Positions 1 through 18,821 of a stretch of 64,000 bases of DNA are shown here, piece after piece; positions within the stretch are counted from its first letter, which is position 1, and each line of letters begins with the position of its first letter. The DNA is from Spizellomyces punctatus DAOM BR117. Its lineage: Eukaryota. Both the position numbers and the translations under genes were made by a program. The notes under the pieces were generated by a model. That model did not search any database and was not told where the DNA came from. It saw only the letters and a list, made by a program, of their open reading frames with translations. The stretch is taken from NCBI GenBank assembly GCA_000182565.2, contig KQ257458.1; one strand, 5' to 3'.

Positions 1-1904
1 CTGTAGGCGAACGAGGATTCCGAACCACATCGTCCATAGAAAATACTCGGTTTACCATCGCTCTCAAGAATCCTGAGTAAATTGCGTGACAACATTGACT
101 TTTTGAAATTTGGATACATTCTTTGAAGAACTTCAGATGCTATTCCTGGTAGCGTTTTATCATTAAAGTCCACTGCGAGTTTCTCGGAGATCTCTCTTCT
201 TTTTGTAAAATTGTTGTCTAGACGTATTTCGTTTCCGCCTGGGAGGATTATATCTTTGACGCAACAATCGCTTCCTTTGCTAGAAATGACATTCCGAACC
301 TTAGGGATGACAAGGGTTTGTTTAATGTATTCTAGAAAGACACTTTCAATCAAGTGGCTTTCATTGAAATCTTTTAGTATGTACACACGATGTTTATCTG
401 ATTTGGTTGCTTCTTGCTCACAAATATCATCTACCGTCGATTTCAAGTCACAGTTTGTTTCAACAAAGATCCATTGAACATCCTTGCCGGGATTCTCTCT
501 CTCTACATCTGCACCGGGATCTTTCTTCTTCTTCTTCTTTTTGCTGACATCTACATTTTCAGACTGGATCATTTCAGCCTTTACCCGTTCGCGTAATGAT
601 TGCTGAAATTTCACATCATGTATCTCTGCGAAATGGTTATCATATACCCAACCATAAAGGGCTGGTAAAGTCCATTTAAACGCCCACTGATTACCTACAA
701 TCTTCTTCATTACCTCACCTTTCTGTTCGATAGATTCATTCGAACAATTGATACGAGCGATGAAGTTCCTGAGACAATCTATCATATAGTAGGATGCACC
801 ATAGCCTAATTTCATCAGTTCAAATGCCAGATTTGGCATATTCCGTGCGCTTGCTCCGTTGTCCAAAGACTCGATTCTAAGAGCATTCATGAGCCATTGG
901 TCATCCATAATCTCTCTACATCCTTTTCGATTTTGTGAACTATAGCCCCAGGTATGCCTGATGGCTTTAATCAAACAACGCCCCTGAGGAATTCCGTCAG
1001 GGTGTATGGGCATGCCATCTGTAAGATCCTTCTTTTCATCAAACAGTATCATATCTACAAGTTTTGCATCAGTCGTGACATCGATGACAGAGAACACATA
1101 TGTTTCAATGCGAATGAAGTCATTGTACTCGTCGTCTCTGTACATGGCAAGGCATCCGTCAGTTTCTTCATATTCCTCGATTAACTTTTGTGCTTTCTTA
1201 GGTGTCATTTTCCCGCGAACATTTTTGAAGACATGGTTACTTTGTTTACTCAGTGATTCCCGAAAGTGTGGAAAGTTTTTATCCTCTTCATGCAGAGGTT
1301 CTTGTCTTCCAAACACACCATGATTTTCTTCGAAATCATTCTCCTTTTGATCTATCTCATGCATCCAGTTACCTTTTTTCTGCCTACGAAGATCTTGTAC
1401 TTTTTTGTAACGATGATCCCTTGATCTGGCAAATCGGTCACCTTCCGTATATTCACGCTCACTATAAAATGGAGCCGTGTTCATCTCACACCAGTAAAGA
1501 AGATGTGTCCATTCGATTGCATAATCGGCTATTTGTTTTCTAGTGGCAGCGCCTTTCTCAGCGGCTTCCTTTCGCTTTTTAATAGCAGCCTGAGCCCTCT
1601 CTTGAATTTCTCTCATCTCGCGCTCTTCCGCTTCTTTATTAAGCCTTCTCGTCTCTCTGGCCTTTTCAGCAATAGCCTGCTTTTGAGCCTCAGTGCGTCT
1701 CGCTGCAGCAATTCTTTTTTCTCACTCAGATTGTAGGAATCTTGGTACTCGATGTATTTGAAGGTTCTCTAGTGCTTCTCGTCGTTTCTTAGTCCAGTTC
1801 TTACGTGAGAAGTTTCCAGAGACGATCTTCCGCATCATCTTCTCGAAAGGCTTCGAGTCTTCTTTTACGTTTCTGTTTGCGATTGGGTCAAAAATCAAAG
1901 ACAT
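1..1904 (-). pseudogene. Large viral ORF (>=634 codons, runs off the window), probably the N-terminal part of a protein-primed family B DNA polymerase/replicase; one in-frame TGA at 1722-1724
   Basis: Manual translation: the frame of ORF 1722..1904 continues with no further stop from 1721 to the window edge. It ends ...KLAVDFNDKTLPGIASEVLQRMYPNFKKSMLSRNLLRILESDGKPSIFYGRCGSESSFAY, which resembles the region before motif A in PLV PolBs. Catalytic motifs are not in the window. Confidence 0.5.
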
Positions 1905-1973
1905 AGTAAATAGAAATATATAGTGTTAAAAAATAAATATTTTCAAAGCTTTAAACGTATTTGTTCTTCGAAT

Positions 1974-2070
1974 GATCCCGGCGCAGAGCCATATCCCGGC
2001 GCAGAGCCATATGCCGGAAGGCATGCCGGCAGGCATGCCGGGCGCGGAGCGGCCAATCCCGGCAGGGATG
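1974..2070 (+). repeat. GC-rich mini-hairpin module cluster (intergenic copy)
   Basis: ATCCCGGCGCAGAGCCAT twice, then ATGCCGGAAGGC, ATGCCGGCAGGC, ATGCCGGGCGCGGAGCGGCCA and ATCCCGGCAGGGAT. Confidence 0.95.
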
Positions 2071-2071
2071 T

Positions 2072-2383
2072 TCATGCGAAGTGAGCAACTTTTACTGGAT
2101 CATCAGGAATAGCCACTTTTCGATTTATTTTAAAGCATCTCCGCTTAGGAGGAGGTGGTGGTTTTCGTATACATGGTAACTTTTCTATAGCATACATCTT
2201 TGAAATAGGCGATTCTGCTAACCCATGTATTATATTATGAATGTACGAGCACGAGACACCTAACCTGTTAGCAATCTCTATGGCTGCCCGATAGTCATTT
2301 ACAAATGTTCTAGAACCATCTTCTTCGATCTTGTATACCCTGTAGCGATCCTTCGTGTTTATCGATCCTGATTTGCGTCCCAT
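2072..2383 (-). CDS. Small basic helix-turn-helix (NUMOD1-like) DNA-binding protein, viral
   Basis: YRAAIEIANRLGVSCSYIHNIIHG fits an HTH/NUMOD1-like pattern; basic Pro-rich tail; AT-rich upstream region. Confidence 0.6.
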   Translation of the reverse strand: MGRKSGSINTKDRYRVYKIEEDGSRTFVNDYRAAIEIANRLGVSCSYIHNIIHGLAESPISKMYAIEKLPCIRKPPPPPKRRCFKINRKVAIPDDPVKVAHFA

Positions 2384-2665
2384 GTTAAAATATATTGTGT
2401 ATACAAAATATTATTTCTCTTTGTTTAAACGTGTGTGTTTATTAGCAAACGTTGTACAAAAGCTCTATAACAACGCCCCTACATGACGCTAAACAAAGGG
2501 ATATCTATGTACATTGTGCTACGAAACACCTTTACAGACTGTTTTTGTCGTTTTGTATTTTTTTTCTGGTTTTGTTGTTTCCATGTCTGTTCTTCAAACG
2601 GACGACATAATTTTTTTGTTGATTTCATGGATTTTTTAGCGTGTGTCAACGGTAATTGAAGAGAA

Positions 2666-3397
2666 TCAAGCAGCGGCGCTACTGCTTCCTACATCTGGAG
2701 GATTGATAACATCAGCATGGACAATGTCCTGATCGCTCACTTTAGCCTTGACGCTCTTTCTGCGCTTAGGGATGCTAGCTGCTATGAGTGCGTTAATCTG
2801 CATCTGCTGCTGCTCGATACGCTCCATGAGCATTTGCTCTAAATTAGCGGAATCCCCATCACGCTCAGGCTCAGGAAAGCCTGCCGGGATGCCTGCCGGC
2901 ATGCCTTCCGGCATATGGCTCTGCGCCGGGATATGGCTCTGCGCCGGGATATGGGTCTGCACCGGGCTTGACCGCTCCGCGCCTGGCATACTCTCTTTCT
3001 CGACACGTCTGCGTTTAGCCTTTTGTGGACTGTAATCGCTGTCATCGGCATCATCGGAATCGTCAGCATCAGATGAAGAACCAGAACTCAAGGTTTCACC
3101 ATCGGACTCTTCGAACTCTTCAAACTTCCTCTTTAACTTGAGAGATGAAGATTTCCGTTGAGTCTCTTCTCGCTTCTTCCGCTTTAGGAGTCGTCTCAGA
3201 TGACCTTTAAGTGATTCTAGCAACTCCTTGTCATCCTTATATATCTTCTGATTATCAGCCATATTTTCTAATAAACACTCGCTTTGCTCGAAGGTGAGAT
3301 CCTCTAGACCCATCTTGAGAGCACGACGCGCTATGGGATGTAGCAAGCCTCCTACAAAGTGCGTCACTTGCCCCCATTGACTCTTTGCAATGGACAT
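2666..3397 (-). CDS. Viral hypothetical protein with basic and acidic tracts and an in-frame GC-module insertion
   Basis: 243-aa ORF with an NLS-like basic stretch and a D/S-rich tract; IPAQSHIPAQSHMPEGMPAGIPAG is encoded by the GC repeat. Confidence 0.7.
   Translation of the reverse strand: MSIAKSQWGQVTHFVGGLLHPIARRALKMGLEDLTFEQSECLLENMADNQKIYKDDKELLESLKGHLRRLLKRKKREETQRKSSSLKLKRKFEEFEESDGETLSSGSSSDADDSDDADDSDYSPQKAKRRRVEKESMPGAERSSPVQTHIPAQSHIPAQSHMPEGMPAGIPAGFPEPERDGDSANLEQMLMERIEQQQMQINALIAASIPKRRKSVKAKVSDQDIVHADVINPPDVGSSSAAA
2880..2990 (-). repeat. GC-rich mini-hairpin module cluster inside a CDS, inverted relative to 1974-2070
   Basis: 2889-2950 is the exact reverse complement of 1975-2036 (62 bp). 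Confidence 0.95.
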
Positions 3398-3542
3398 GTT
3401 TCAAGTTCGGTTAGGTGTTTCAGAAAATGTAGCTATGTTTCAGATTCGGTTAGATGTTTCAGAATTATGGCGCGTGTTTCAGAACACGTATCTGATGTTT
3501 CAGATTCAGTTAAATGTTTCAAATCATACCTGATGTTTCAAA
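3397..3542. repeat. Array of eight phased TGTTTCA direct repeats (iteron/operator-like)
   Basis: Copies start at 3397, 3416, 3436, 3455, 3475, 3496, 3515 and 3534 (19-21 bp spacing), immediately upstream of the 2666..3397 gene. Confidence 0.85.
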
Positions 3543-3684
3543 CCCGTACTCGTGCTAATGGGAGAAAAGATACACCGAGTGCCTTTTTATGCCACCGGCT
3601 TGTACTCAGGGACGCCCTTCCGTTCAATGGAAAGAATCTTGGCATCCCTGCCGGCATAGTCTTGGCATTTCTTGGCGCCGTTTT

Positions 3685-3855
3685 TTAAACATAAACAACA
3701 CGCCTCACGACTCTTCCAGAACCGTAGCGTCGCTTACGTGTTGCTGCGGCTTTTCTAGCAGCGATGATGCGCCTGTTTCTTGCACGAGCAGCCGCTCTAA
3801 GTCCTTTATTCGGCATGGCCGATACGTTGACGAGTTTTCGATGTGTTTTTGTCAT
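3685..3855 (-). CDS. 56-aa Arg/Ala-rich basic protein, candidate genome-condensing core protein (not in the ORF track)
   Basis: Manual translation: MTKTHRKLVNVSAMPNKGLRAAARARNRRIIAARKAAATRKRRYGSGRVVRRVVYV*. It has no acidic residues, lies directly downstream of the MCP, and is preceded by TTTTTTCTAAGCT. Confidence 0.7.
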   Translation of the reverse strand: MTKTHRKLVNVSAMPNKGLRAAARARNRRIIAARKAAATRKRRYGSGRVVRRVVYV

Positions 3856-3917
3856 ATTCTTCTTGAGGCTTACCTAACCAAAGCTTAGAAAAAATCATCG
3901 TGGTTCCTGTTGTTGAA

Positions 3918-5306
3918 CTATGCTGGTAACAAGCGAACACCATCACGGTCGATGCGCATCTCATGGTCAGTTGTCCAGAAAACATGGAATGTCTTGTCCT
4001 TGAATGTCTGAATATAATCGGGGTTAGCCGTAGTACCATCCGCTAGAGTAGGGCTTGGAAAATCGGCTACTTCTGGAGGGTTGGGATATTGACTCACATT
4101 GATGAGAATACGCCCATCGGCTAGAGTATTCAAACCACCGCCGATCATATCTGGACTTTGCTTGAAATTTTGCCTCCATGACCAATGCTGTATCTTTTTG
4201 CCTGCTAGTGCCCATCCTTCCAAATCGGACATAGTGGGGGCAAATCGCACATCATTGAAATCTTTATTACGTTGGCTTAATGCATACATTTCAGGATCTA
4301 CAGTAGGTATAATATTAGTACCAGCACGAGCGGAACCGTTGGCAATCGCTTTTCCCTCAGGGAACCGCTGCGTACCCACCTGGATACTAACTGTTCTAAT
4401 CCCAGCATCTTCACTGAAATTCAATTTGTCTACATCAGTTCGAACATTGTCAGTTGTCACCAACATCAATGACGAAACAGAGGACTGCTCACCAGTCACA
4501 AGTGACAATTGCTGTACGCGACTGGCTTGCCCAGCAAACTCCTGACTCCACACAACTTGCATGGGGATGGTCAAGTATTCGTTGCTCTCCATTAGGCTAA
4601 GGATCTTGTTGTAGTATTCGGGTATGGGCTCGGCGAACTGGCAAATGAGTTCGTTCTGGACAATCTTGAATGAATCTATTCCTGTGGATGTGGGGAAAAT
4701 TTTGGCAAGTTCACTCTCTGCGGTCATCTCGACCTGGACACCACCTTTGACAAGACAGAGAGGGAAAGCCACTTCATTTTGAAAGAATGACAGTGATGAG
4801 CCAGTGACAGTGTATGCCCTGTTTTTAGCAACCACTGCTGAACGGTCGTTAGCCGCATCACTCGAATAATATTCACATTGCCCAAGATGTTGTTTGGTTT
4901 CCCACGATGTTAGAGCGTTTTCATGTGCGGTGAACAAATTATAATCATTGAGATCTTCGATGATCCTTCCATTAATAAGAACACTTTGGCGTTTCCATAC
5001 AGCATCTGTTCCTGATTGACATAGCCTGTGGGTTGCAGTGGCAGAAACGATTTCCTGTCTATTTGCATCAAGCCCTACGACACGATATTTATGTAAGGTT
5101 TCATTCACAAGCCAAAAACGCTTGTCATCGGCTATTTTAAAAGTGATTTTGCTGCCAAAGTTACAGTCACCCGATCCGTTGGTAGGCTCGAAGCGAACCT
5201 GACTAGATGGCTGAAAATTCAGCACAACCCCGTTCTTGGCATTGCGCTTATACGTAAAGACGTTTGGGACTCGTCGAACCTCAGTTACCTGAATTCCTGA
5301 AGACAT
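3918..5306 (-). CDS. Major capsid protein, double jelly-roll type (PLV-like)
   Basis: 462 aa and beta-rich. FEPTNG..NFGSKITFKIADDKRFW and AVWKRQSVLINGRIIEDLNDYN match the pattern of PLV MCP N-termini; adjacent to the ATPase and penton genes. Confidence 0.8.
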   Translation of the reverse strand: MSSGIQVTEVRRVPNVFTYKRNAKNGVVLNFQPSSQVRFEPTNGSGDCNFGSKITFKIADDKRFWLVNETLHKYRVVGLDANRQEIVSATATHRLCQSGTDAVWKRQSVLINGRIIEDLNDYNLFTAHENALTSWETKQHLGQCEYYSSDAANDRSAVVAKNRAYTVTGSSLSFFQNEVAFPLCLVKGGVQVEMTAESELAKIFPTSTGIDSFKIVQNELICQFAEPIPEYYNKILSLMESNEYLTIPMQVVWSQEFAGQASRVQQLSLVTGEQSSVSSLMLVTTDNVRTDVDKLNFSEDAGIRTVSIQVGTQRFPEGKAIANGSARAGTNIIPTVDPEMYALSQRNKDFNDVRFAPTMSDLEGWALAGKKIQHWSWRQNFKQSPDMIGGGLNTLADGRILINVSQYPNPPEVADFPSPTLADGTTANPDYIQTFKDKTFHVFWTTDHEMRIDRDGVRLLPA

Positions 5307-5338
5307 TGTGGTTTAACTTACACATCTAGAAAAAAAAA

Positions 5339-5365
5339 ACGTCACTTTTTAAGAAAAAGTGACAT
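5339..5365. terminator. AT-rich palindrome between the ATPase and MCP genes (candidate 3'-end hairpin)
   Basis: GTCACTTTTT-AAG-AAAAAGTGAC, a perfect 10-bp stem at 5341-5363. Confidence 0.5.
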
Positions 5366-5486
5366 CAAAAATTGTGCCTTTCGGAAAGGAGTTTGCTGTC
5401 CTAAATAGCCTGAACTCAGTCGGTGTAGCTTAACAAGTTACAATGGTTGTCAAAGCGAGGGGGTCAAAGGGGGACAGCCTATCCCC

Positions 5487-6158
5487 CTACAAAAAACCAA
5501 CTCTAAATGGTCTTTTCGAACTTTGTAGATTTATGTGCACAAAATGAAACGGTTTCTTTGTATTATCCATAACGAACTTTTCAAATACATCTTCAGGTAA
5601 AGCGAGAGATAAGCCTGATTCGATCATTTTCTTAAGTTCACTTTTCAAAGGTCTAAAAATGATCCAGTTCGTCGCATTGCTACGGACAGCGGGACTATTG
5701 TGATAAAAATATTGACTCGACAGGATGCAGGTGATTCCAGCATGTCTACCCCGTGTAGCCAACTCATCGAGTGACTTCTTATGTCCTTTCTGCATATTGT
5801 AGTCATCTATGATAAGAAGTAAATCTCGTTTTCTTCCGCTTCGAACAAATTCATAAAGTTGCTCTTCGTGTATAAAATTGAGTATTTCATTGGAAATCTT
5901 GTCAAATATATGAACCTTTTTGCTCGTTCTTAAAGGGTTCCAATTGGTGTCATGTGGATTTGGTGTGAATATTATGATATTCGAATACTGCTTCTTCAAG
6001 AACAATTTGCATATCACAGCAATGTTTAGCGTTTTACCGCTAAATCGAGCGCCATTGTATACGATAAAACCATACTTTCTAGGAAGCCGTGGATCTGTAT
6101 TATCCTTTATTCATCCAGAGACTTGACTAGGTAAGGGGGCAATTGTGATTGGCTTCAT
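5487..6158 (-). pseudogene. A32/FtsK-like DNA packaging ATPase with a premature TGA at codon 16 (6111-6113)
   Basis: From ATG 6158 it reads MKPITIAPLPSQVSG*IKDNTDPRLPRKYGFIVYNGARFSGKT (Walker A). Walker B is LLLIIDD, followed by the A32-type RGRHAGITCILSSQ and VRSNAT motifs. Confidence 0.9.
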
Positions 6159-6206
6159 TGCACTTGTTTTTTATTTGCTCTCTGTATCTATAATACATTA
6201 GAAGAA

Positions 6207-6950
6207 ATGAAAAAGTTGATTCTCGATAGCAACAGAGCGACGAACGGAAACAGGAATGAACCTAAATGGACTCTAGCCGAACCCATTGCATGTGATAAAA
6301 TTCGATACAATTCAATCATTTTGCCCCTTTCGTGGGACATAGTAAACGACAAGAACAATATTGTCTCCTTTTATGATGCTGGGATGGGTAATGCTGCAAG
6401 GACTTTCGTTATACCTCCTGGTACTTACTCTCCAGATGATTTAGTGGATGCACTGACTGCTGGATTCAACTCTACAGGGACGCAAGCATACACTGTAGAA
6501 TACAATCATATAAACAATCAAATCACAGTGACCGCGGGTACAACACCATTCAAAGTTCTCTACCCTCAAACCACAGCAAGCAAACTGCTCGGATTAGTTC
6601 AGACGCAGCAATCTGACCCTGGGAGATCAATAACTTTTGCGAATCCAATCGATTTGACAGGTGTTAAGATGGTGCTCGTAGCCTCATCTAACATAAGGTC
6701 AAATGATGTCATTTATGCAGGCGCAGATGATTTAAATATCATTGCCTCTATTCCGGTGTCGCAAGAAATTGAAACTGTCCTATGTGTGCAGAATTATTTT
6801 GACACCGACTTCATTGACACAGAGTCTGGCCTTGTTAGTACGATCGACATCCGTTTGCTTGATGCAGAAACATTGCTACCCTTGGATCTACAGGGCAAAG
6901 GGTTCACTTTAGTTCTCGATTGTCATTCCTCCGGCTTTGCAGATGATTAA
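6207..6950 (+). CDS. Minor capsid (penton-like single jelly-roll) protein
   Basis: LILDS at the N-terminus, IPPGTYSPDDL, SKLLGL, IIASIPV and C-terminal IDIRLLD...LDLQG.GFTLVL are typical of PLV/virophage/NCLDV minor capsid proteins. Confidence 0.85.
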   Translation: MKKLILDSNRATNGNRNEPKWTLAEPIACDKIRYNSIILPLSWDIVNDKNNIVSFYDAGMGNAARTFVIPPGTYSPDDLVDALTAGFNSTGTQAYTVEYNHINNQITVTAGTTPFKVLYPQTTASKLLGLVQTQQSDPGRSITFANPIDLTGVKMVLVASSNIRSNDVIYAGADDLNIIASIPVSQEIETVLCVQNYFDTDFIDTESGLVSTIDIRLLDAETLLPLDLQGKGFTLVLDCHSSGFADD

Positions 6951-6977
6951 TTTTTTTTCATTTGGAACATGTAAAAG

Positions 6978-7295
6978 ATGTTGCGTCAAAAATTCGCAAA
7001 CTTTCTCTCAAGTGCAAAAAACTTTGGTCTTAGAGCGCTGAACAGTTATAACAAAGTTAACAACGGTATTAGACAATTTGTTGCCCATGCTGGACAAGCC
7101 AAAGATATCTATGGGAAAGTTCATCAATCTCTTGTCCATGACGAATCTGTACCCGTCAAAGTAAGAGAGACAATTTCATGAGGACGAGGCTATATCGATG
7201 ATCTCCATAAAGGTCTAGGGTGGGGCTATGAGATTCAACAAAATTTTGATTCAGCCTTAAGGAAATCGCTTCCTGTTGAATTAGCGGGGTATTAA
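6978..7295 (+). pseudogene. Small viral protein with an amphipathic N-terminus; in-frame TGA at 7179-7181
   Basis: The frame continues after the TGA as GRGYIDDLHKGLGWGYEIQQNFDSALRKSLPVELAGY* to TAA 7293-7295, which abuts a hairpin. Confidence 0.65.
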
Positions 7296-7319
7296 TGCTA
7301 CTTTTAGAAAAAGTAGCGT
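7295..7319. terminator. AT-rich palindrome between two convergent stop codons
   Basis: ATGCTACTTTT-AGA-AAAAGTAGCGT fills the gap between TAA 7295 and the stop of the opposite-strand gene at 7319. Confidence 0.6.
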
Positions 7320-7579
7320 CAAATGATTTCATTCAAGTCATCACTGTAAAGAGGATTTTCATGAATAATAACATATTCGTTCCAGTTAATACCCCCCGCA
7401 TCAGCGTCTGGGATGATGGTTTCCTTACTGTATGCTAATGCCGGCTCAGGCATGCGAGGTTCCTCCAGTTCTCTTATAATTCGAGAAAGAACTGTTTCCA
7501 TTTCTTGCCCTTCATTCCTTTCAGCCAACTTCTTCCTCAAACGCTCTTGTATCCGTTCCTTCCTTTGCTGAGACGACAT
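7319..7579 (-). CDS. Viral hypothetical protein (MSSQQRKERIQERLRKKLAERN...)
   Basis: Likely start is ATG 7579 after an A-rich leader; divergent from the 7629 gene. Confidence 0.6.
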   Translation of the reverse strand: MSSQQRKERIQERLRKKLAERNEGQEMETVLSRIIRELEEPRMPEPALAYSKETIIPDADAGGINWNEYVIIHENPLYSDDLNEII

Positions 7580-7628
7580 TCTTCTTTTTTTTAATAATAC
7601 TATATAGTAAAATACAGAATAGAACGAT

Positions 7629-8606
7629 ATGTCTGTTGCCGAATTAGTAAAACTACTACAGCAAGGTAACACTGATGTAACTGCTTACAACTCTGAGCAG
7701 GTTGAACGTGATGTGTTCTGGAAAGAAAAAAGAAAATGGGTTGACTCAAAGTTACCTACAGGCTATTTCAAGCACCCGCTGTTAAACAAGTATCGTTCAT
7801 TTGGTAAGGTTGATACACAATTTGTCAGTGACCCATACTATATTGAAATTGATAATAGACGTTTTGGTGAACTGAGAGATGAAAATGGACGCTCTTTGAA
7901 TCCTGATACATTTCGTCCCATTGTGTCTGATGCAGAACTCAAACAGATGCGGGAGGGTCGTACCCGGATGAATGCTCCGAGTGCTAATCAAGAAACTAGG
8001 TATCCGATAAACCACGGTAGTGAAGGATACAAAAATGACATAGATTTGATTGCACGCATCCGACGAATGCGCGAAGGTTATGAAGAGTTTATAAAAGAGG
8101 AAAAACGTAAGGAATTGGCTGACATACAGCGTTTCCGCTCTTCACATGGTATTCACAATCCTGGGGAGAGTTTGCTAGAAACAACTGGCTTGGGCACTAG
8201 GGGTACTGATATTTCTGCCTCAAGAGATGAATACAACATGCAACGTGGCGTGATACGACCTACTCCTGCTTTGTCTGAGAACATCTTTTATGAGGAAGGA
8301 GGCACGCCACCTACACAATTAGTTCTACATAGGCGATCTGAATCACCAACCTCAGGCTTACCATCACTAGCGCCGATGGATGACTCACCATCTCCATCAT
8401 CATCTGCATTTGACTTCACAACAATGCAGCCATCGCCAAGGCTTCACGAGAGGAGAAACCCGAGAGAATCATCCTTGCAGGAAGTTTACAATCCAAGAAC
8501 CGGTAATTGGATTAGAAAAAATGGTAAGGTACACAAGGAACTTAAGAAAGAGTGGGCAAGTAATTCTTATAAGATACCATCATCATGGACAAAAGAACCT
8601 CGCTAA
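7629..8606 (+). CDS. Viral hypothetical protein with a C-terminal NPxTG motif (2-cysteine-adaptor-like)
   Basis: 325-aa ORF; VYNPRTGNWIRKNGKVHKEL resembles the NPxTGRxI module of nucleocytovirus and PLV proteins. Confidence 0.65.
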   Translation: MSVAELVKLLQQGNTDVTAYNSEQVERDVFWKEKRKWVDSKLPTGYFKHPLLNKYRSFGKVDTQFVSDPYYIEIDNRRFGELRDENGRSLNPDTFRPIVSDAELKQMREGRTRMNAPSANQETRYPINHGSEGYKNDIDLIARIRRMREGYEEFIKEEKRKELADIQRFRSSHGIHNPGESLLETTGLGTRGTDISASRDEYNMQRGVIRPTPALSENIFYEEGGTPPTQLVLHRRSESPTSGLPSLAPMDDSPSPSSSAFDFTTMQPSPRLHERRNPRESSLQEVYNPRTGNWIRKNGKVHKELKKEWASNSYKIPSSWTKEPR

Positions 8607-8645
8607 GCGTATTTGGGTTTTTTTATTTTCTATTTACAAGCTAAA

Positions 8646-9473: not shown

Positions 9474-9531
9474 ACCAAATGTCGGCATGCAATTCATTTT
9501 CTAAGCTATGATGATATAAAGGAATAAGAAG

Positions 9532-12500
9532 ATGCCTTTGCCTAATAGCATTCAAGGCACATATACGGTTCGAAGAAATTTAGAAGTCCTAGATAATTTC
9601 AAGTCCGGAAAAGTTAAAGCCAATTCTATCTATGGAGAGAGCCTACGGAATAAAGATGGTATAGTCACTATACTCGATTTGGATAGTCAAATGCCTAGTC
9701 TCTCCATTCAGAAAAATAAAGGTAAATATACCATCTCTCTTGCCGAGACAACTTATGTTTTTCCATTAATTGATGATGAACATGATGTCAGGCTTGTAAC
9801 AGACGATACTCTGCTTATAACAGAAGACGGCTTATCTGTTAAACCAGAGACACTCCTGCAACCTCTCTATAGGGCTCCCGACTCACGAACAGTAAGCCTA
9901 AACATTGATGATGATGAACTAAAAGTTGAGGATGAAAAATTAACAGTCATTCCTTATAACTATGATTTTCCACTCTACAGGGATGCCGAATCACGTACGG
10001 TTGGTTTACAAGCAGATGATACTTTGCTTATAACTGAAAATGGTCTATCCGTCAATTTCCCTGCTCCTGAGACGCTGAAAAAGCCGTTGTATCGTGACCA
10101 GAGTGTCCTTGGAATCAAACTTCATAAAAGTCTAAAGGTTAATAGTTCAGATGAACTCGAAACAAACTCAAGCCAACTGTTCAAAGCATTTGGGGCTATA
10201 AAGACATCCAGCGGTGCGGATATGCTGTTAGACATCGGGTCTTCATGGCTCAACTTTGGATTTGGTAGTCTGACCGAAATGACTAATGTGTTAGGAGAGG
10301 TAGACACCACAGCAATACGCTTAATGGTCGATTCTTCGACATTCAGTCAAGCAGGGTCTCGCTTGAGCCTAAAGTCGCCTGGCTACGAACAAATCCTGTA
10401 TGGGAATCTAACATACGGTTTTTCAGGAAGTCCTTCATTCACCTATTCAACAACACTTTCAGAGTTGCGAGTTCCTAACGTGAAGTTGACCGGAACGATG
10501 CCAGCCTTTGGAGACTCATATGTGGTTTCAAAGGGTTATATGTCCAACTTTTTCGTAGGGTCTCAAACAGGCGCGGTTGCTATAGGGCCCGAATTTTCAA
10601 ATCGAAGAGAAGTCGGAGTACTTGTTGACAACCAAACCATACGAATCATTGGAAATCAACTTGTTTCAGGTTTGATTTTCCAGGATTTTAATGGAGTTTC
10701 GATTCGGGCAGGGACTACTAACGATGTAGTCTTGAGTTTGAAGTGTGAAGCCGGTTCTTGTCTCCAAATGGTGAAAGCGGATACCATTAAAGATGTGCTT
10801 ACTTGCTCAAATGGAGTTGAGCGACTCCAGAACGATATACAGTTGAGTTTGAAATGTGATGCTAATTCAGGGCTTGCAATGTCAGGTCGTGATACAATCC
10901 GCGATACTTTTACAGCATCTCAAGGAGTAACTCGAGTGGGCAACGATTTCAGATTATCTCTTACGGCACAAGGTCCCGACTTAACCCTCAATAATGGTGT
11001 TCTCAGTTCGAACATCGCCGCGGGAATCGGACTCCAGAAAAATGGTGCCGTTTTATCAGCGAATCTACGTGGAATAAATGGTGTCAGTGTTTCGGGAGAC
11101 CTGATTTCGTGTTCGCTTACAGGAAGCGATACCGTTCTCCGAGTTGGTGATATGCTGAAAGGGAATTATATTGGCTTGACAAACTCGTATGGAAGTATCG
11201 TAGTTGTGGGTAACACGATACAGTATAATATGATTCCTCCACAATTCATTAGTAACAGTCCGAATCTTATAATCACAGGAAGTTATCCTATATACAATTT
11301 TACCATCATAGACCCAACTCCACTTTCGAAACAGAAAGATACTGATAATACGGAACAAAGTGATACCGCTGAAGTGTTGAAAACTGATGTTCCGGGAGGA
11401 AATGTGGTTGTTCTTTCTGGCGCAACTCCGTTGACCACAATTCCGTTCCCTTCAATGGTATCACCACCATTAACAGTTCCCCTTGCTGTAAATTCGATTC
11501 TTCCAATTGTCTCGACGTTCCCTTGGGGAATGGTCTTTGGTGGTGAACGCCAGCGAAAAGTAGAAAGAGATGGTGAGGGAAATCCAATACTCGATGGAGA
11601 AGGGAATCCTATATATGAACCGGCTGACCCGGTAACAGGTCAACCACCTTTAGAGCCCGGCTCGAATGTTGCAATTGCATCTGACCCCATCGGAGGGTGC
11701 ACACATCTCTTGTTTGATACGCCTTCATGTTATCAAGGTATCAAATATGAGTACCCTCAGCAAGCAATCAACCTCTCGATGCTAAGGGATTACGATGATG
11801 AAGTCATCAAGCCTTGGGTTGGAAGTCAGATTACGAATTTGACATCGAATAATGTTACATTTGGAGGAAACATCAGCGGTAAACTAATCAGCGGAACCAG
11901 ATTGAGTATTGCTCCGGGAGTGACAGGCAGTTCTGCCGTTTCAACATATTCCACATTCGATGGGGCTAAGAGTACTTGGTTTGGTCTTGACGGAATGGGA
12001 TTTTTAGGCTATAATCCAGGTGCATCAACATGGCTCGGTGCTCAAGATTCATCAATGTTTATTTTTGCATGCGCGGGGAGTACGCCGAATCTTGGGCTCC
12101 GAATCGACACCAATGGTTCGTCAACATTTGGTAAAAACTTAACGGTTGCCGAGGGCGATTTTACCATTGGCACTGCTGTTAACGGGTTGCGTTCTCTTGT
12201 GATTCGTAACACAAGTACTGGAAACAACGCTTGCCCTATTTTGTTTCTCACCAGCGCGACTGGAGTCGCTCCGATATTCCTTAATGGACCAGGTCGAACG
12301 GTCGATGGTGGAGCGAACACTTTAACGGTACGCAATGACTGTGGGTCTGTTCGCGTGCAAGCGCTAGGCGCAAAAGGGTTGAGCATTGCTGGAACAAGTG
12401 GCAACATTTCACTGGATAGCACCACCGTATCAACTTCTCCAATAACAGGCGCCTTTGTTTGTCCAGGAGGAGTTGGTATTGGAAAAGATGTATTTGTCGG

Positions 12501-15205
12501 TGGTAATATCTTTGCGTCCACGAATCTGAAAGTTGCTACAGAATCATTCGTTACGACAGCCGTTGCTTCAAAGCAGAACACATCCCCTTTGCTCGATGCA
12601 ATCAGTGGCTTGTCACCTACACCTAATACCTTCATCATGGGAACGGCTGGAGGTTTCAATGTGACACCTGTTTCTTCAATTCTAGGTGGATACCAACCTA
12701 TTCTAACGAATTCCTCAGCGCTCAATATCTCTTCTCTTACAACAAGCGGCTCAATAATTGTAAATGGCGCCTCTGATATTGTGTTCCATGTTGATAACAT
12801 CGGAAATGGATTGATGACAGGAGGACTGCTTGTCGAGGATGATTTGAATGTAGGAGGCATGATTTACCTTGGAGGTGTCGAGGTAGCCAGCCAACAGTTT
12901 GTTATTGCTAATACAAATCCTATTAGTCAGTCCTTATCTTCACTTCAAACCACTGTCACAAACAACAACAATTCCCTAACGACAGCACTTGCATCGAAGC
13001 AACCCATGAATAGCACGACAAACTCTATCTACACAATGACTGTCCAGCCTGACAGTTGGCTATATTCATCTGGGGGAACGAGTTTCGAGAATGTAACAAG
13101 CGCTCAAGTGAAATCTATCCTCGATGTTGCAACAAATGCTAATGTTAGTTCACTCCTTTCTGGGAAGCAAAGTAGCATAACAACTTCAACAAATTTGTCT
13201 CTGGCAAGTCTCACTGCAAATGGTTATTTAAGCATTGTGAATGCCGCCAATCCAACATACATGTCACTAGTCAACACGGCATCTAATGTGACTTGGGGTC
13301 TTCGAGTGGCTGGTTCTTCAGCAGATGGCTCTAATCCTGCCGGTGGTTTTGGTATAAATTGTTTGTACAATAATGTCGGTTATCTTTTCAAGATTTCTAA
13401 TACAGGAATAACCCAAGTTACATGCACAACAGATTCGACATCCTCTTCTACAGGTGCGCTTCAGGTCTCTGGTGGTATGGGTATTTCCAAGAATCTTTAT
13501 GTTGGAGGAGCCTGTACTCCAATAATGTGAAGGTTGCGACAGAATCATTTGTAACTANNNNNNNNNNNNNNNNNNNNNNNNNNNNNNNNNNNNNNNNNNN
13601 NNNNNNNNNNNNNNNNNNNNNNNNNNNNNNNNNNNNNNNNNNNNNNNNNNNNNNNNNTTCAAAAACAGGCTTCAAGTCCTTACTTGATTCTATAAGTGGC
13701 TCGTCCTCTCAGCAAATTCATTTATCGTTGGAAATCCTACTACTACCTTTGCAGTGAAAACACCTAGTGAAGTAAGGTCTATTCTAGGTATTACAGATGT
13801 TGACCTATCGGGTAAGCAGAATGCAAGTCCCTTGCTTGATTCCATTGCATCGATGTCACCTATGAGCAATATGTTTGTTATGGGAGATGATGTAAATGGA
13901 TTTGTTCTCGAAAATGATACTACAGTCCGAAGTATCTTGAACATTGTTGACTACGCACCAGACATATCAGCACTACAAGCGAACGTCTCTACATTGCAAG
14001 GGAACGTCTCTACATTACAAGCGAATGTCTCTACATTACAATCGAGTATCTCAACAAAACAAGATGTTCTCACAAACAGTAGTCCATTATCGGTGGCAGC
14101 CATCATTTCCAACGATACCGCTGATTCAACATCACCCATCACTGGAGCACTTCAAGTGAAGGGTGGAGCAGGAATCGCTAAGAAACTATGGGTTTCTGGT
14201 GCACAAATGACCGTCCAAAATACTAACTATAGTGTTGGACAAACCAATACCCTCATGTTTTCACACGCAACGCAAAATATATGTTCTATACAATCCTATT
14301 TGCCTGGTAGTAACAATGTAGACCTGAATTTCTATGTCGGACAAAACAACGCATCTATTCAAAGTATGTCGCTTAATGGAGCAACCGGAAATGCTTATTT
14401 TGATAGAGATGTCATCATCGGAAACACCAGTGTAAATGCTTTAAGAAGCATTCAGGTCAAGAATGTAGACACAGGAACAAATGCTTGTTCGATTTTGTAT
14501 CTAACTGCATCCGGTGGTTCGTCTGTTCTTTTTATGAATGGAAGTAATCGTTCAGTTGATGGAGCGCAGAATTGTTTGACTCTTCGTAATGACGTGGGTG
14601 CCTTGCGCCTTCAATCTCAGGGAGCAAAAGGTATTTACGTTTATCCTAACACAGGTAATGTCGTTGTTGAAAGCACCACTCCAGCGTTATTGAGTACAAC
14701 TGGCGCTTTGGTGGTTGCAGGTGGACTTGCGGTCGGTGCCCATGTCGTATCAGGTGGAAACCTTTATGCAAATACAGCGGTCTACGCTAATGGACAAAAA
14801 TGTGCGACTGAACAATGGGTCTCTACACAAGTACAAGCCTTCCCTAAGATTCAGGTGTTCAAGATGCTAACTAAAGATGTAATCACAACTGGTAGCGGAA
14901 CAAAGACATTCTATGTTTCTACAGCCGGCCGGGCATTGATACGCTATACCATCAACTTGCATGGCACCAATAATGCAGGAGGAACGCTCAATGTGTATCT
15001 AGGAACTAATGCCGGTTCGATGCCGTCAGTCTTTTCCAGTGATTTTAACTATAATGCTGGAGTGAACAGAACAATTTATGCCTCATTCATCGTGTCGGGT
15101 TTAGTTCCTGATGTAGCATATTTTACCAATTTTTCAGCAGTAAATGCAGCACCGGACATAAGTGCAGACGTAACAATTATAGAGATTACGGAACTTGGTG
15201 CTTAG
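9532..15205 (+). CDS. Very large fibre/spike-like protein, probably one gene interrupted by an assembly gap and frameshifts at the contig ends
   Basis: ORFs 9532..13530 and 13754..15205 share repeated modules (SKQxxSPLLDxIS; STSPITGA...GGxGIxK; LRS..RN..TG.NAC.IL.LT...DG..N.LT.RND.G). Beta-spiral-like repeats lie at the N-terminus. KVATESFVT continues in another frame at ~13510-13557. Confidence 0.7.
13558..13657. other. Assembly gap (100 N)
   Basis: Run of N. Confidence 1.
13972..14042 (+). repeat. 21-bp tandem repeat encoding LQANVST heptads (coiled-coil stalk)
   Basis: Translates as ALQANVSTLQGNVSTLQANVSTLQSS. Confidence 0.85.
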
Positions 15206-15256
15206 AACTCGAACGAGTGCCGTTATTAAAAAAAATGAAGCTATGAAGACATAAAA

Positions 15257-15565
15257 ATGCAGCGCGCGGACATTGCTGGTCATTCAGTTTTCAATATAAG
15301 AGATGCTGTAAAGGGCGACATGGATAAATTTTGGAAATTTTGTGAAAGTATGTTAAGAGGGGACAAGAGCAGGGTAATTCTCTATTTACCCCAAACACCT
15401 GAAAATGAACATATCTTTCAAGAGATTCTCTCCATCATCCACTTGAAGAAACTCGACCAATTATGCTTCAAGCGTAGTGGTTATCTCGCTATTCTCAACA
15501 ATTTTGTATTGTTGGGTCATTCGAGAAACGAACGGCTGTTTTTTTTAGAGATGAGAGTCAAATAG
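15257..15565 (+). CDS. Viral hypothetical protein
   Basis: 102-aa ATG-started ORF with an A-rich leader, tightly packed with the next ORF. Confidence 0.6.
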   Translation: MQRADIAGHSVFNIRDAVKGDMDKFWKFCESMLRGDKSRVILYLPQTPENEHIFQEILSIIHLKKLDQLCFKRSGYLAILNNFVLLGHSRNERLFFLEMRVK

Positions 15566-15566
15566 A

Positions 15567-15962: not shown

Positions 15963-15988
15963 AATGCACGCTGAATAATCTTCCACTC

Positions 15989-16369: not shown

Positions 16370-16602
16370 CGCCTGAGTTGCCTACATGAAATATGCAACC
16401 AGTTTTTCAGCAGGAAACCAACGAGGCCATTTAAACAGATGCATATTTCTATTTAGTTCTATCTTTTTCATCAATTGAACCAAATTTATACAGCTTTTTC
16501 CCAAAAATCATGGAGTGTATTTTGTGTCCCCCCTCTTTTCTCATAAAAATGCTATGTAGGGAGAACATGTAGCAAGAGCTTCCGTTCTTCGCCGTTCTGT
16601 GA

Positions 16603-17700
16603 CCACTTGCAGCACCCCATGGCAGAGAAATCTTGAAGGAGTTCCTAGCCCAGAAGGGAGCTTAATCTTAAAGTGGGGGAGTGTGACAGAATTCTTCTGT
16701 CAGTGCTATGGTTATACTGGTTAGATGTGGTTCCAAACTAGTGGTCACATGACTTTGCTGATGGTGTCAGCATTCATTTGACCAGAATTAGATAAATAAG
16801 CAGATTTAGCCATTTCTGGCTAAATTAGATGAGTATCCTGACACACTAGCATCTGCCCCTTTTAATCAAGTGGCATAGTGTATTTAGGATGACTTGTCTC
16901 ACTTGTGATTGGCTATAAATGGTGCAATAGGCTGACAAATAGTTTAGGATGACATGTACAAGATCTGATTGGGTAGTTAGGATATAGCATTTGTCAGCCC
17001 CTTTGTCTATAAAAAGAGGACCTCTCTGAGGCCCCTCAAAGGAGGAAAATAACAAGTAGTAACCAACTCTTCCCTAGTTTTCTGTTGTCTTCTTGTCCCT
17101 GCTAGCCTGTTACAATGAGTCTGGATCACAGGTGAGCGGCCTTGCGTTGGTGAGTGTTTGACTGGCATCATTCTCAGTTTTGTGAAGTCTGTTTCTGAAA
17201 TGAGAGAAAAGGTTTCCGAGTAGCTACCTGAGTGGATCTTGGTTTGCACAAGGGTTTCAGTATGACTGAATAAGGTTTTCAGCTGAATTTGAGAGGGGAA
17301 GGCACTTCGTCGTGCTTCTCCACCATGTAACAGATTTTTTTGTTGGTAGACTATGGTAAAGACAACTTGGGTCTCCTAGCAGGTTGTGTAGGTGTCCGTA
17401 CTAGGAATCATAGTCTCCGAATCCTTTCTTTGGGTGTCGATAGCAAATTGGGGGTGAGAGGCAAGGAGAATTGGTTAGTTGTGAACTGAGCAGGATTTAG
17501 AGGCTTCAGTGCAGGTGATCAGGCCGTTGAAGCACTCTGTTAGGTTCCTGTTAACCTAAGATTGGAGTTGAGAAGCTAGTTGTGGGGATTTAGTGTCACT
17601 ATGGCTTCTGCCCCTGACTTATTCTATTGAATACATCCTTTTTATACAAGATTTTTTGGATAAACTGTTAAACTAAACTAAACTAATGGGTGCCACTGCA
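16603..17700 (+). mobile_element. Degenerate Gypsy/chromovirus-like LTR retrotransposon remnant (pol tail, PPT, LTR, PBS, 5' leader)
   Basis: A ...HGREILKEFLAQKGA* tail (chromodomain-end-like) is followed by the purine tract AAAGTGGGGGAG, the LTR, a PBS-like GGTGAGCGGCCT, and a possible truncated gag start near 17685. Confidence 0.6.
16682..17130 (+). repeat. Long terminal repeat (449 bp)
   Basis: TGTGA...TCACA inverted termini and TATAAAA at 17008; no CpG found by eye. Confidence 0.65.
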
Positions 17701-18821
17701 CCGCAACTGATTTATTGGTGGCGGTACTGATCTCTTCCTTTTCCGCACTAGCTCGGGCCTCCACAGGTTGTACGAGGCAGGCTGAAATCTAATGCACCAA
17801 TTGCCATCCTCGAACCGGTTTTTTCGGTCGCGGTAACCCAATCGGTGGAGTTGGTCACGCGATTCGTGCTTCCCGCGTGGCTGACTCGCGATCTCTCAAA
17901 GACGTCCTCGTCGTTACAGGCATGATGATTGGAATAGAAAAATGGATGAAAACCTGGGAAATGGGCAGAGAAGGCGGGTTTATATAGAAATATGACAACT
18001 GCGCATTGGACCCGTTTTTCAATGGTGGAGCAACTGCAGAATCAATCATTTATTGCCGCACATATTGGACCCGTTTTTTTGTTTATCTTCGTGAGGTTCA
18101 CAATAAATGTGGTTAATTCAACTGGCTGCAATGCTCCGTGGCACTGACATTTCTATTTTCCCACATTCGAGTGTGGCGCAGTGGGATTGGTCATCAGGTC
18201 CCGCTTGTGAAGTGGTCAACAACAAGCGAACAAACGAGAACTGGCGTGCTGAACATTTTTGAAGGCCTTTTGATTTTCTTTGAACCTAAACTGTAAACCT
18301 CATCGGGATACGATAGGATAACCACAGAAACCTCCCAACCGACGATACGTCACGAAAATGTCGGCCTTAAAATACCTGCGAGCCCGCTTTACCGTGTTTT
18401 CCCATGTTCACCGATACAAGGGTGTCAATGGTGGAGTGCGCAAGTTGAAATGCTGGTTTAGGAGAAGTTGGATGAGCGGGTATCTATGACGGGAGGAGCT
18501 TGGAAGGAACTTGTCTTGGAAGAGGATAGTCAACAAGGGATGAATGTATTGAGCATGGTGCATCAACAGGGCCGTTCAAGGGAATGTGTAAATATGGTAT
18601 CAGCAATCAATTATGATATTAAATTCTATGGTACTTCCACAGATTGGTCTCATTCACTACAAGAAGGCTGATTCTGAGTGTTACTACGATATACCGTTCA
18701 CATCAAAACCTCATTTCTAAATCGCCACACTGGGATATAAATGACCTTCTTTCGGGTTATCGTTTACACAAGACGGTATCCTCATCTTATACTGATGGGA
18801 GATGCCTGGTGCATATTACTT

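What the first reader, a model, noticed from the sequence alone, without database searches (positions are those of the whole stretch)
1722..7181. Three viral genes each broken by a single in-frame TGA, consistent with CpG-methylation decay
Seen: replicase-like ORF (QSE*EKR, 1722-1724), ATPase (SG*IKD, 6111-6113, upstream of Walker A) and small protein (TIS*GRG, 7179-7181). All three stops are TGA at positions where Arg fits, and the frames are otherwise intact. Repeat copies also differ by CpG transitions (GCGCGGAGCGG versus GCACGGAGTGG). Established: 5mC deamination converts CGA to TGA. Inference: the host methylates and mutationally disarms this provirus at an early stage, since many CpGs remain. 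UGA recoding is less likely because other viral ORFs appear to end in TGA and no readthrough context is shared.
Basis: partly seen in the sequence, partly recalled or inferred. Interest (0 to 1): 0.72.

Follow-up and report, generated by a model that had tools for sequence, protein, structure and literature searches.

The report
CpG-decayed stop codons in chytrid provirus
An integrated polinton-like virus in a chytrid fungus genome has three genes each cut by one TGA stop, and comparison with sister copies shows these fit a wider pattern of C-to-T changes at CpG sites, the usual scar of DNA methylation on silenced repeats.

Summary
Window 1-16.6 kb is an integrated polinton-like ("MELD") virus in a Spizellomycetales chytrid, most likely Spizellomyces punctatus. 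Single in-frame TGAs interrupt three genes:
- the replicase (1722-1724, minus strand);
- the A32-type packaging ATPase (6111-6113, minus strand);
- a 105-aa protein (7179-7181, plus strand).

All three lie inside coding sequence that homologues conserve. At those positions homologues read R in the nearest sister, K/R/S/L, and K/R, never a stop.

TGA ends 5 of 14 viral ORFs and 6 of 12 long host ORFs, so recoding is unlikely.

The CpG-decay reading is supported:
- 45 CGA codons remain against 233 other codons that a transition can turn into a stop, so three of three at CGA has P about 0.003.
- Capsid genes of two sister copies in the same genome differ from the window at 12 transition sites. 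All 12 are window CpG against sister TpG/CpA (8% expected).
- An outgroup sides with the window at 5 of 5 testable positions.
- The adjacent multi-copy repeat shows the same bias, 23 of 30.
- RNA reads are almost absent over the element.
- Published nanopore data place 5mC on Spizellomyces transposons.

Not shown: methylation of this locus, and the homologues' codons at DNA level. This is a new example of a known process.

The parts
3..1904 (-). N-terminal 634 aa of the viral replicase. The gene runs off the window start. Full-length relatives carry a superfamily-1 helicase domain beyond this point.
   Evidence: ORF. Pfam gives no hit for the window part. Of 6 homologues scanned (761-1382 aa), 5 (999-1382 aa) carry AAA_30/AAA_19 domains at about residues 820-1070, and 2 of these also UvrD_C_2 near 1243-1294. 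Residues 23-130 are 85% identical to the N-terminus of a named pPolB-type gene, SPPG_05488.
1722..1724 (-). In-frame TGA number 1 (QSE*EKR).
   Evidence: The aligned residue is R in the nearest sister, and K once and Q four times in more distant homologues.
3918..5306 (-). Putative major capsid protein, 462 aa, intact.
   Evidence: ORF. No Pfam, PHROG or PDB sequence hit. Nearest Atlas clusters are viral, and some carry DJR-like or Capsid_N families, which is a lead only. Two sister copies at 99% and 97% identity are annotated in S. punctatus.
5487..6158 (-). A32/FtsK-type genome-packaging ATPase, 223 codons.
   Evidence: Pfam PF04665 Pox_A32, 28.5 bits against a cut-off of 22.8. It is 81-84% identical to proteins that include 'FtsK [Powellomyces chytrid fungus MELD virus 1]'.
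6111..6113 (-). In-frame TGA number 2 (VSG*IKD), codon 16, upstream of Walker A.
   Evidence: Seven full-length homologues read K, K, K, R, K, S and L here. A run X2 contig piece covering 5855-6235 shows 0 other letters.
6207..6950 (+). Putative minor capsid or penton protein, 247 aa, intact.
   Evidence: ORF. The only hit is a sub-threshold Pfam match to DUF5901. The role is inferred from its position beside the ATPase.
6978..7295 (+). Small conserved protein, 105 codons, function unknown.
   Evidence: ORF. Two homologues of 103-104 aa are 72-75% identical and span the whole length.
7179..7181 (+). In-frame TGA number 3 (TIS*GRG), codon 68.
   Evidence: The two homologues read K and R here. 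A run X1 contig piece covering 6867-7775 shows 0 other letters.
7629..8606 (+). 325-aa viral protein with a weak 2-cysteine adaptor match, intact.
   Evidence: Sister copies SPPG_07209 (99%) and SPPG_09280 (89%) are.
9532..15205 (+). Fibre-like gene or genes: 9532-13530 and 13700-15205. They are separated by a frame change near 13510 and a 100-N gap at 13558-13657.
   Evidence: Sister SPPG_08558 (589 aa) reads across the junction in one ORF.
16614..18075 (.). Multi-copy, transcribed host repeat that abuts the right end of the provirus. The window copy has decayed at CpG sites.
   Evidence: Read depth is about 10-20 times that of the flank, and loose ends sit at 16614 and about 17920-18075. CpG observed/expected is 0.54. 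Of 30 sites where the window has T/A and other copies have C/G, 23 are CpG sites.
1975..2067 (.). One of six sites carrying GC-rich 63-nt modules. The others are at 2884-2966, 8666-8701, 9270-9459, 16193-16238 and 16299-16336.

Best explanation
The first 16.6 kb of the window is an endogenous polinton-like (MELD-type) dsDNA virus integrated in a chytrid chromosome. It is one of several closely related copies in that genome. The copies are transcriptionally silent. Like the host's other repeats they are probably CG-methylated, so they accumulate C-to-T transitions at CpG far faster than any other change.

In the window copy, three such hits most likely converted Arg CGA codons to TGA. This truncates the replicase at codon 61, the packaging ATPase at codon 16 and a small conserved protein at codon 68. 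The copy therefore can no longer replicate or package on its own. Its capsid, penton and most other genes are still intact, and its CpG content is barely reduced, so the decay is young.

Shown here:
- the three stops;
- sense residues at these positions in homologues;
- normal use of TGA as a terminator;
- the CpG-specific spectrum among sister copies and in the adjacent repeat;
- near-absence of RNA reads.

Inferred:
- CGA as the ancestral codon;
- 5mC on this locus;
- deamination as the chemistry.
For: Viral identity:
- Pfam Pox_A32 scores above its cut-off.
- The ATPase is 81-84% identical to proteins that include one named FtsK of Powellomyces chytrid fungus MELD virus 1.
- Replicase homologues carry a superfamily-1 helicase domain.

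Host:
- Fungal-type genes lie from 18.8 kb onward.
- The window's proteins lie on a contig of the same length as a contig that holds named S. punctatus proteins.

The stops interrupt conserved coding sequence. The aligned residues are R in the nearest sister, then K four times with R, S and L once each, then K and R.

TGA is a normal terminator:
- 5 of 14 viral ORFs end in TGA.
- 6 of 12 long host ORFs end in TGA. One of them has a 705-aa product that is in the protein collection letter for letter.

CpG specificity:
- Three of three nonsense hits fall on CGA, against 48 of 324 transition routes to a stop, P = 0.003.
- The capsid proteins of two same-genome sister copies differ from the window at 18 residue positions. 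All 12 transition-type differences have a window CpG codon (CGN, TCG, GCG, ACG) facing the TpG/CpA-encoded residue in the sister. Only 74 of 926 non-synonymous transition sites are of that kind, P = 7e-14. The 12 become 11 events if the shared R399H is counted once.
- A Powellomyces outgroup fragment has the window's residue at 5 of 5 alignable positions.
- In the abutting repeat, among the 40 best-supported read differences, the window has T/A against C/G at 30 sites. Of these, 23 are CpG sites, P = 1e-8. None of the 7 opposite-direction differences is at CpG.

Silence: raw RNA reads of the same species label give depth 0-0.44 over the element, against 12-140 over the next 1.3 kb.

Literature: in Spizellomyces '5mC is confined to transposons' (PMC12695648, passages read).
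Against: - No homologue DNA could be obtained. CGA, one transition away, is preferred over AGA, one transversion away, only on spectrum grounds. At sites 2 and 3 most homologues have Lys, not Arg.
- CpG observed/expected in the element (0.89) does not differ from host DNA (0.92). Composition alone therefore gives no sign of methylation.
- In the capsid gene and the 325-aa gene the window lineage shows only one CpG loss of its own, I98 where both sisters have V. Three hits in 48 CGA codons is more than that low rate predicts. Either decay is uneven along the element, or some stops predate the copies' separation.
- Methylation of this locus was not measured.
- Read support at the three codons could not be read out. 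The read-laying table showed only the 40 best-supported of 528 differences, all of them in the repeat. For site 1 the only listed contig piece (1540-1974) has 8 other letters at unknown places.
- The contigs that confirm sites 2 and 3 may come from the same sample as the assembly.
Confidence: 0.78

Rival explanations
1. The spectrum is the same, but it is produced by an active, duplication-triggered, RIP-like cytosine hypermutation that targets CpG in multi-copy DNA. Under this reading it is not slow spontaneous deamination of maintained 5mC.
For: - The element is multi-copy in this genome.
- In the capsid gene the per-site rate at CpG is 12 of 148. At other non-synonymous transition sites it is 0 of 1704, a ratio above about 45 at the 95% bound. 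From recall, that is steeper than the roughly tenfold CpG excess typical of vertebrate genomes.
- The adjacent repeat copy lost 23 CpGs in about 1.4 kb.
Against: - Counts are small and come only from non-synonymous sites.
- Classical RIP prefers CpA (recalled). Here only 2 of 18 window-T sites are followed by A, and 14 are followed by G.
- RID-type enzymes are described for Ascomycota (review PMC13297926, passages read). Their presence in this host was not tested.
- CpG content of the element is nearly intact, unlike heavily RIPed DNA.
Confidence: 0.12
2. The TGAs are not lesions. They are read through or recoded (selenocysteine, Trp, or programmed readthrough), so the three genes remain functional.
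For: - All three stops are the same codon, TGA, and each gene has only one.
- Whether sister copies share them is unknown.
Against: - TGA terminates 5 of 14 viral ORFs and 6 of 12 long host ORFs.
- Every homologue that spans the sites has a sense residue there: 7 for the ATPase, 2 for the small protein, and 6 well-aligned ones for the replicase. None has Cys or Trp at the aligned position.
- The downstream contexts differ (TGA-GAA, TGA-ATA, TGA-GGA). None has the C after the stop that, from recall, favours readthrough.
- Almost no RNA covers the element.
Confidence: 0.03
3. The stops are sequencing or assembly errors, or chance point mutations unrelated to CpG, for example AGA to TGA transversions.
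For: - An assembly gap and a nearby frame change show the assembly is imperfect in this element.
- Lys dominates at sites 2 and 3 in homologues, so the ancestral codon is not proven.
Against: - Contig pieces from two runs reproduce sites 2 and 3 with 0 other letters.
- Three independent errors all creating TGA at Arg/Lys positions is improbable.
- The surrounding sister-copy spectrum is CpG-dominated.
- Transversions are absent among the near-identical capsid copies outside one divergent patch at residues 419-433.
Confidence: 0.07

Closest known systems
Powellomyces chytrid fungus MELD viruses 1 and 4 (Starrett et al. 2021, PMC8502044; passages read)
   Same: - The packaging ATPase is 82% and 74% identical.
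- The paper describes MELD viruses from a Powellomyces dataset with fibre-like genes, and either PolB or other replicases that include a superfamily-1 helicase. The window's replicase homologues match that description.
   Different: - The window element is integrated in a chromosome of a different chytrid and carries three nonsense codons.
- The searched passages of the paper contain no mention of stop codons or TGA.
Integrated polinton-like virus of Spizellomyces punctatus (Bellas and Sommaruga 2021, PMC7805220; passages and supplement passages read)
   Same: Same host species (inferred) and the same general kind of element: an integrated PLV inside a large contig.
   Different: - The supplement passages tie that paper's group to SPPG_00926 and SPPG_00927. 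The window family's annotated sister genes are SPPG_07208, 07209, 00318, 09280 and 08558, so this appears to be another lineage.
- Decay by CpG transitions does not appear in the passages I read.
5mC silencing of endogenous giant viruses and adintovirus-like elements in Amoebidium (Sarre et al. 2024, PMC11244446; passages read)
   Same: The host is a unicellular opisthokont, CG methylation marks endogenous dsDNA viral insertions, and the insertions are transcriptionally silent.
   Different: - That study measured methylation directly. Here it is inferred from the mutation spectrum.
- The words 'deamination', 'stop codon' and 'pseudogen' do not occur in that paper's main text, so the mutational consequence shown here is not its subject.
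CpG decay of methylated repeats and endogenous retroviruses in vertebrates (textbook knowledge, recalled)
   Same: CGA to TGA nonsense mutations and R to C/H/Q, T to M, A to V and S to L replacements dominate the divergence between copies.
   Different: The host is an early-diverging fungus in which 5mC is reported as sparse and confined to transposons. The element is a capsid-encoding dsDNA virus, not a retroelement.

Membership tests
Polinton-like / MELD virus (integrated) | A32/FtsK-HerA type genome-packaging ATPase | tested here: met
   PF04665 scores 28.5 bits against a cut-off of 22.8. The protein is 82% identical to a protein named FtsK of Powellomyces chytrid fungus MELD virus 1.
Polinton-like / MELD virus (integrated) | Double jelly-roll major capsid protein | tested here: inconclusive
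   There is no Pfam, PHROG or PDB sequence hit. The AlphaFold model has mean pLDDT 29.5 and was not used. Atlas neighbours are viral clusters, some with DJR-like or Capsid_N families on 10-24% of members, which is a lead only.
Polinton-like / MELD virus (integrated) | Replication module (pPolB, or a helicase or primase replicase) | tested here: met
   The window part itself has no Pfam hit. Five of six scanned homologues carry superfamily-1 helicase domains C-terminal to the matched region. In this copy that part lies outside the window.
Polinton-like / MELD virus (integrated) | Terminal inverted repeats and target-site duplication at both ends | not testable with these tools
   The left end lies beyond the window start and no genome is held. 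The right end lies between 16456 and 16614.
5mC-driven CpG decay of a silenced repeat | Nonsense codons are TGA at ancestral CGA | tested here: inconclusive
   At protein level the aligned residue is R in the nearest sister at site 1 and K/R at sites 2 and 3. No homologue DNA was found.
5mC-driven CpG decay of a silenced repeat | Divergence between copies is dominated by CpG to TpG/CpA | tested here: met
   In the capsid gene, 12 of 12 transition differences are of this kind, against 8% expected. The outgroup supports the direction at 5 of 5 positions. In the adjacent repeat the count is 23 of 30.
5mC-driven CpG decay of a silenced repeat | CpG depletion of the element relative to host DNA | tested here: not met
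   Observed/expected is 0.89 against 0.92, and 0.54 in the adjacent repeat. This is compatible only with very young decay.
5mC-driven CpG decay of a silenced repeat | The locus carries CG methylation | not testable with these tools
   The only support is the literature statement that 5mC is confined to transposons in Spizellomyces (PMC12695648).
5mC-driven CpG decay of a silenced repeat | Transcriptional silence | tested here: met
   RNA raw-read depth is 0-0.44 over 1-16675 and 12-140 over 17343-18676. About 6% of one run was read.
UGA recoding (selenocysteine, code 4 or 10, programmed readthrough) | TGA is not used as an ordinary terminator, or is conserved at the site in homologues | tested here: not met
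   TGA ends 5 of 14 viral ORFs and 6 of 12 host ORFs. All homologues that span the sites have sense residues there, none of them Cys or Trp.
Ascomycete-type RIP | C-to-T changes preferentially at CpA | tested here: not met
   In the repeat, 14 of 18 window-T sites are followed by G and 2 by A. In the capsid gene, 12 of 12 differences are at CpG.

The most novel reading that the evidence does not exclude
Chytrid fungi may have a copy-number-triggered CpG hypermutation defence. It would be functionally RIP-like but CpG-specific, and it would act on endogenous capsid-encoding dsDNA viruses as soon as they reach several copies. It would knock out replication and packaging genes first, while capsid genes are still intact. 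The steep CpG to non-CpG ratio is compatible with this: 12 of 148 against 0 of 1704 sites in the capsid gene. So is the near-normal CpG content.
Probability: 0.12. Interest if true: 0.6.

Novelty: new member of a known kind. Interest (0 to 1): 0.38.

Why it matters
Polinton-like viruses are known in chytrid genomes, and 5mC is known on chytrid transposons. How these fungi neutralise integrated dsDNA viruses has not been described in the papers I could search.

This locus and its sister copies give a clean, datable case. The copies are near-identical, and almost their only differences are CpG transitions. Three of those transitions already abolish replication and packaging genes.

It offers a tractable system for testing whether CG methylation silences and erodes endogenous viruses in fungi. 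From the papers' passages, the host is transformable, and nanopore methylomes and ChIP data exist for it. The same was shown for silencing, though not for erosion, in Amoebidium. The process itself is textbook, so the surprise is modest.

Tried and rejected
- **Whole genome.** None is held for this window, so sister loci could not be aligned as DNA.
- **DNA relatives.** Four scans found nothing usable:
  - IMG/VR with the ATPase alone: no match.
  - IMG/VR with the ATPase alignment: one locus, L001, 24% identity.
  - Metagenomes with the alignment: no match.
  - Metagenomes with the capsid protein: L002, 46% over 28 residues.
- **Earlier findings of this scan.** Nothing was found by place or by sequence.
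- **Sequencing-run index.** No RNA holder was listed.
- **Reads at the three codons.** The read-laying output showed only the 40 best-supported of 528 differences, all in the 16.8-17.9 kb repeat.
- **Copy number from depth.** ChIP read depth was judged unreliable as a copy-number measure.
- **Family searches.** Pfam and PHROGs gave nothing above threshold for 12 of 14 viral ORFs.
- **Replicase fragment.** The Atlas and PDB sequence searches gave nothing.
- **Capsid protein.** The PDB sequence search gave nothing. Its AlphaFold model was too poor (pLDDT 29.5), so no fold search was run.
- **Intron hypothesis for the ATPase stop.** By eye on the sequence, the only GT...AG span across the TGA is 28 nt. 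That is too short and not a multiple of three, so it was rejected.
- **CpG observed/expected as a methylation signal.** It shows no difference from the host.
- **Missing ATPase annotation.** The absence of annotated ATPase proteins from sister copies was considered as evidence that they share the stop. This was rejected because the window's intact penton gene is not annotated either.

Full report
**What is there**

Window 1 to about 16.6 kb has lower G+C (0.40-0.45) than the rest (0.45-0.56). It is packed with ORFs on both strands.

- The ORF at 5487-6158 (minus strand) matches Pfam Pox_A32 above its cut-off. It is 81-84% identical to six full-length proteins, one of them named 'FtsK [Powellomyces chytrid fungus MELD virus 1]'. 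It is 74% identical to the FtsK of MELD virus 4.
- Next to it lie a 462-aa putative capsid gene (3918-5306, minus strand), a 247-aa putative penton gene, a 105-codon gene, fibre-like genes (9532-15205) and several small ORFs.
- The capsid assignment is a lead only. There is no family or PDB hit, the fold model failed (pLDDT 29.5), and the Atlas neighbours are viral clusters that partly carry DJR or Capsid_N families.
- The ORF that runs off the window start (3-1904, minus strand) has no Pfam hit. Its relatives of 999-1382 aa carry superfamily-1 helicase domains further downstream. This matches the 'S1H' replicases that Starrett et al. describe for MELD viruses (PMC8502044, passages).
- From 18.8 kb onward the window holds fungal-type genes: RGS, cyclophilin, old-yellow-enzyme and WD40 proteins.
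- Exact look-ups place the window's proteins on a contig of 1,037,365 bp. Named Spizellomyces punctatus DAOM BR117 proteins lie on a contig of that same length. Sister copies at 89-99% identity are annotated on at least three other contigs.

The element is therefore an endogenous polinton-like virus, one of several related copies in a Spizellomycetales chytrid.

**The observation**

The three TGAs are real and in frame. Each sits inside coding sequence that homologues conserve on both sides.

- Site 1: FLQSE[R]EKRIAAARR in SPPG_05488, which is 85% identical over 108 residues. More distant helicase replicases have K once and Q four times at this position.
- Site 2: PLPSQVSG[K/R/S]IKDKTDPRLPRKY in seven homologues.
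- Site 3: VVS[K/R]GRGYI in two homologues.

In the ATPase no ATG lies between the stop and Walker A, so the stop cannot be bypassed by a later start.

**Recoding is unlikely**

- TGA ends 5 of 14 viral ORFs and 6 of 12 long host ORFs. One of those host ORFs has a 705-aa product that is in the protein collection letter for letter.
- No homologue has Cys or Trp at the sites.
- The three downstream contexts differ.

**Is it CpG decay?** Four lines of evidence point the same way.

1. *Codon counts.* The viral ORFs keep 45 CGA, 117 CAA, 73 CAG and 43 TGG codons. Three of three nonsense hits at CGA has P = 0.003 if all transitions are equal.

2. *Sister copies.* The capsid proteins SPPG_07208 and SPPG_00318 are 99% and 97% identical to the window's.
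   - Mapping each difference onto the window's codons gives 4 of 4 and 8 of 14 differences as window CpG (CGN, TCG, GCG, ACG) against the residue encoded after a C-to-T or G-to-A change: R to H/C/Q, S to L, A to V, T to M.
   - The other six differences cluster in residues 419-433 of one copy. They are transversions or multi-step changes.
   - Only 74 of 926 possible non-synonymous transitions in this gene are of the CpG kind, so 12 of 12 has P = 7e-14. R399H is shared by both sisters, so the 12 may represent 11 events.
   - A Powellomyces fragment used as outgroup has the window's residue at all five alignable positions: 134, 155, 312, 327 and 399. The sisters are therefore the derived ones.
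   - The near-identical copy of the 325-aa gene adds one CpG loss in the sister, one in the window (I98, where both sisters have V) and one other transition.
   - The more distant copies (89-91%) also show many transversions, as expected for different viral strains.

3. *The abutting repeat.* The 16.6-18.1 kb repeat has 10-20 times the read depth of its flank and CpG observed/expected of 0.54.
   - Among the 40 best-supported read differences, the window copy has T/A where the other copies have C/G at 30 sites. Of these, 23 are CpG sites, against a background of 26%, P = 1e-8.
   - None of the seven opposite-direction differences is at CpG.

4. *Silence.* Raw RNA reads of the same species label are nearly absent over the element, at depth 0-0.44. 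They give 12-140 just outside it.

**What argues for caution**

- No DNA of any homologue could be fetched. CGA is therefore inferred, and most homologues have Lys at sites 2 and 3.
- CpG content of the element (0.89) is the same as the host's (0.92). That fits only very young decay.
- In the capsid and 325-aa genes the window lineage shows just one CpG loss of its own. Three hits among 48 CGA codons is then somewhat many. Decay may be uneven along the element, or some stops may be older than the split of the copies. I could not find out whether sister copies share the stops.
- Read-level confirmation is partial. Contig pieces from two runs reproduce sites 2 and 3 with no differences. The piece over site 1 has eight differences at unknown positions. 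The per-site table did not reach these codons.
- Methylation of the locus was not measured.

**Mechanism**

The most likely sequence of events is this.
1. The virus integrated and spread to several copies.
2. The copies were silenced together with the host's repeats and CG-methylated.
3. 5mC deamination then produced CpG-to-TpG changes far faster than any other substitution.
4. In this copy, three of those changes created stops in the replicase, the packaging ATPase and a small conserved protein.

A RIP-like active process that targets CpG in duplicated DNA would leave the same marks and is not excluded. The CpG to non-CpG ratio in the capsid gene exceeds about 45 at the 95% bound. Classical CpA-biased RIP is excluded.

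**Comparison and novelty**

- Integrated PLVs in S. punctatus (PMC7805220) and MELD viruses of Powellomyces (PMC8502044) are in print.
- So is 5mC silencing of endogenous dsDNA viruses in Amoebidium (PMC11244446).
- A 2026 preprint speculates that methylation could suppress endogenous PLVs (10.64898/2026.06.19.733378, passages).
- My four literature searches and the passages I read turned up no description of CpG-transition decay or nonsense codons in chytrid PLVs.

This is a new example of a well-known process. It is useful as a test system but not very surprising.

Noticed in passing
window 16614-18075: A multi-copy repeat abuts the provirus. DNA read depth is 10-20 times that of the flank, and it is strongly transcribed on both strands. 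It has no Rfam match and no long ORF. CpG observed/expected is 0.54. Its kind (solo LTR, non-autonomous transposon or other) was not determined, nor whether the virus integrated beside it by preference.
   Followed up: partly
window 1975-2067, 2884-2966, 8666-8701, 9270-9459, 16193-16238, 16299-16336: GC-rich, partly palindromic 63-nt modules (ATCCCGGCGCAGAGCCATATGCCGG...GGCCAATCCCGGCAGGG) occur at six places in both orientations. Most lie inside ORFs, where they encode PAGMPAG- or PGAEPYAGRHAGHG-type repeats. One low-depth contig in run X1 joins 9269 to 16299, which suggests a 7-kb deletion variant or recombination between modules.
   Followed up: partly
window 13440-13700: The fibre gene changes frame near 13510, about 50 nt before a 100-N assembly gap at 13558-13657. 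A sister copy, SPPG_08558, reads through the junction in one ORF. The two fibre ORFs are probably one gene. The lesion may be real or an assembly artefact.
   Followed up: partly
window 1515-1838 (minus strand): The first approximately 108 residues of the helicase-type replicase are 85% identical to the N-terminus of a pPolB-type gene, SPPG_05488. That gene lies on a contig of the same length as the one holding the window's proteins. The rest of the two proteins is unrelated. A shared N-terminal module is thus attached to different replicases in related elements.
   Followed up: partly
sister capsid protein P0014, residues 419-433: A short patch (PTLADGTTA against EKL-EGDTP, plus Q433P) holds all six non-CpG differences of this copy. 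It could be a local indel pair, a recombination tract or a gene-model artefact.
   Followed up: no
window 38380-39987: A 535-aa Ala/Thr/Gly-rich repetitive ORF lies in the window's most GC-rich stretch (0.556), with a long antisense ORF across it. It was not examined.
   Followed up: no
window 54433-54506: A tRNA-Ala(AGC) gene. It is the only Rfam or ARAGORN hit in the window.
   Followed up: no
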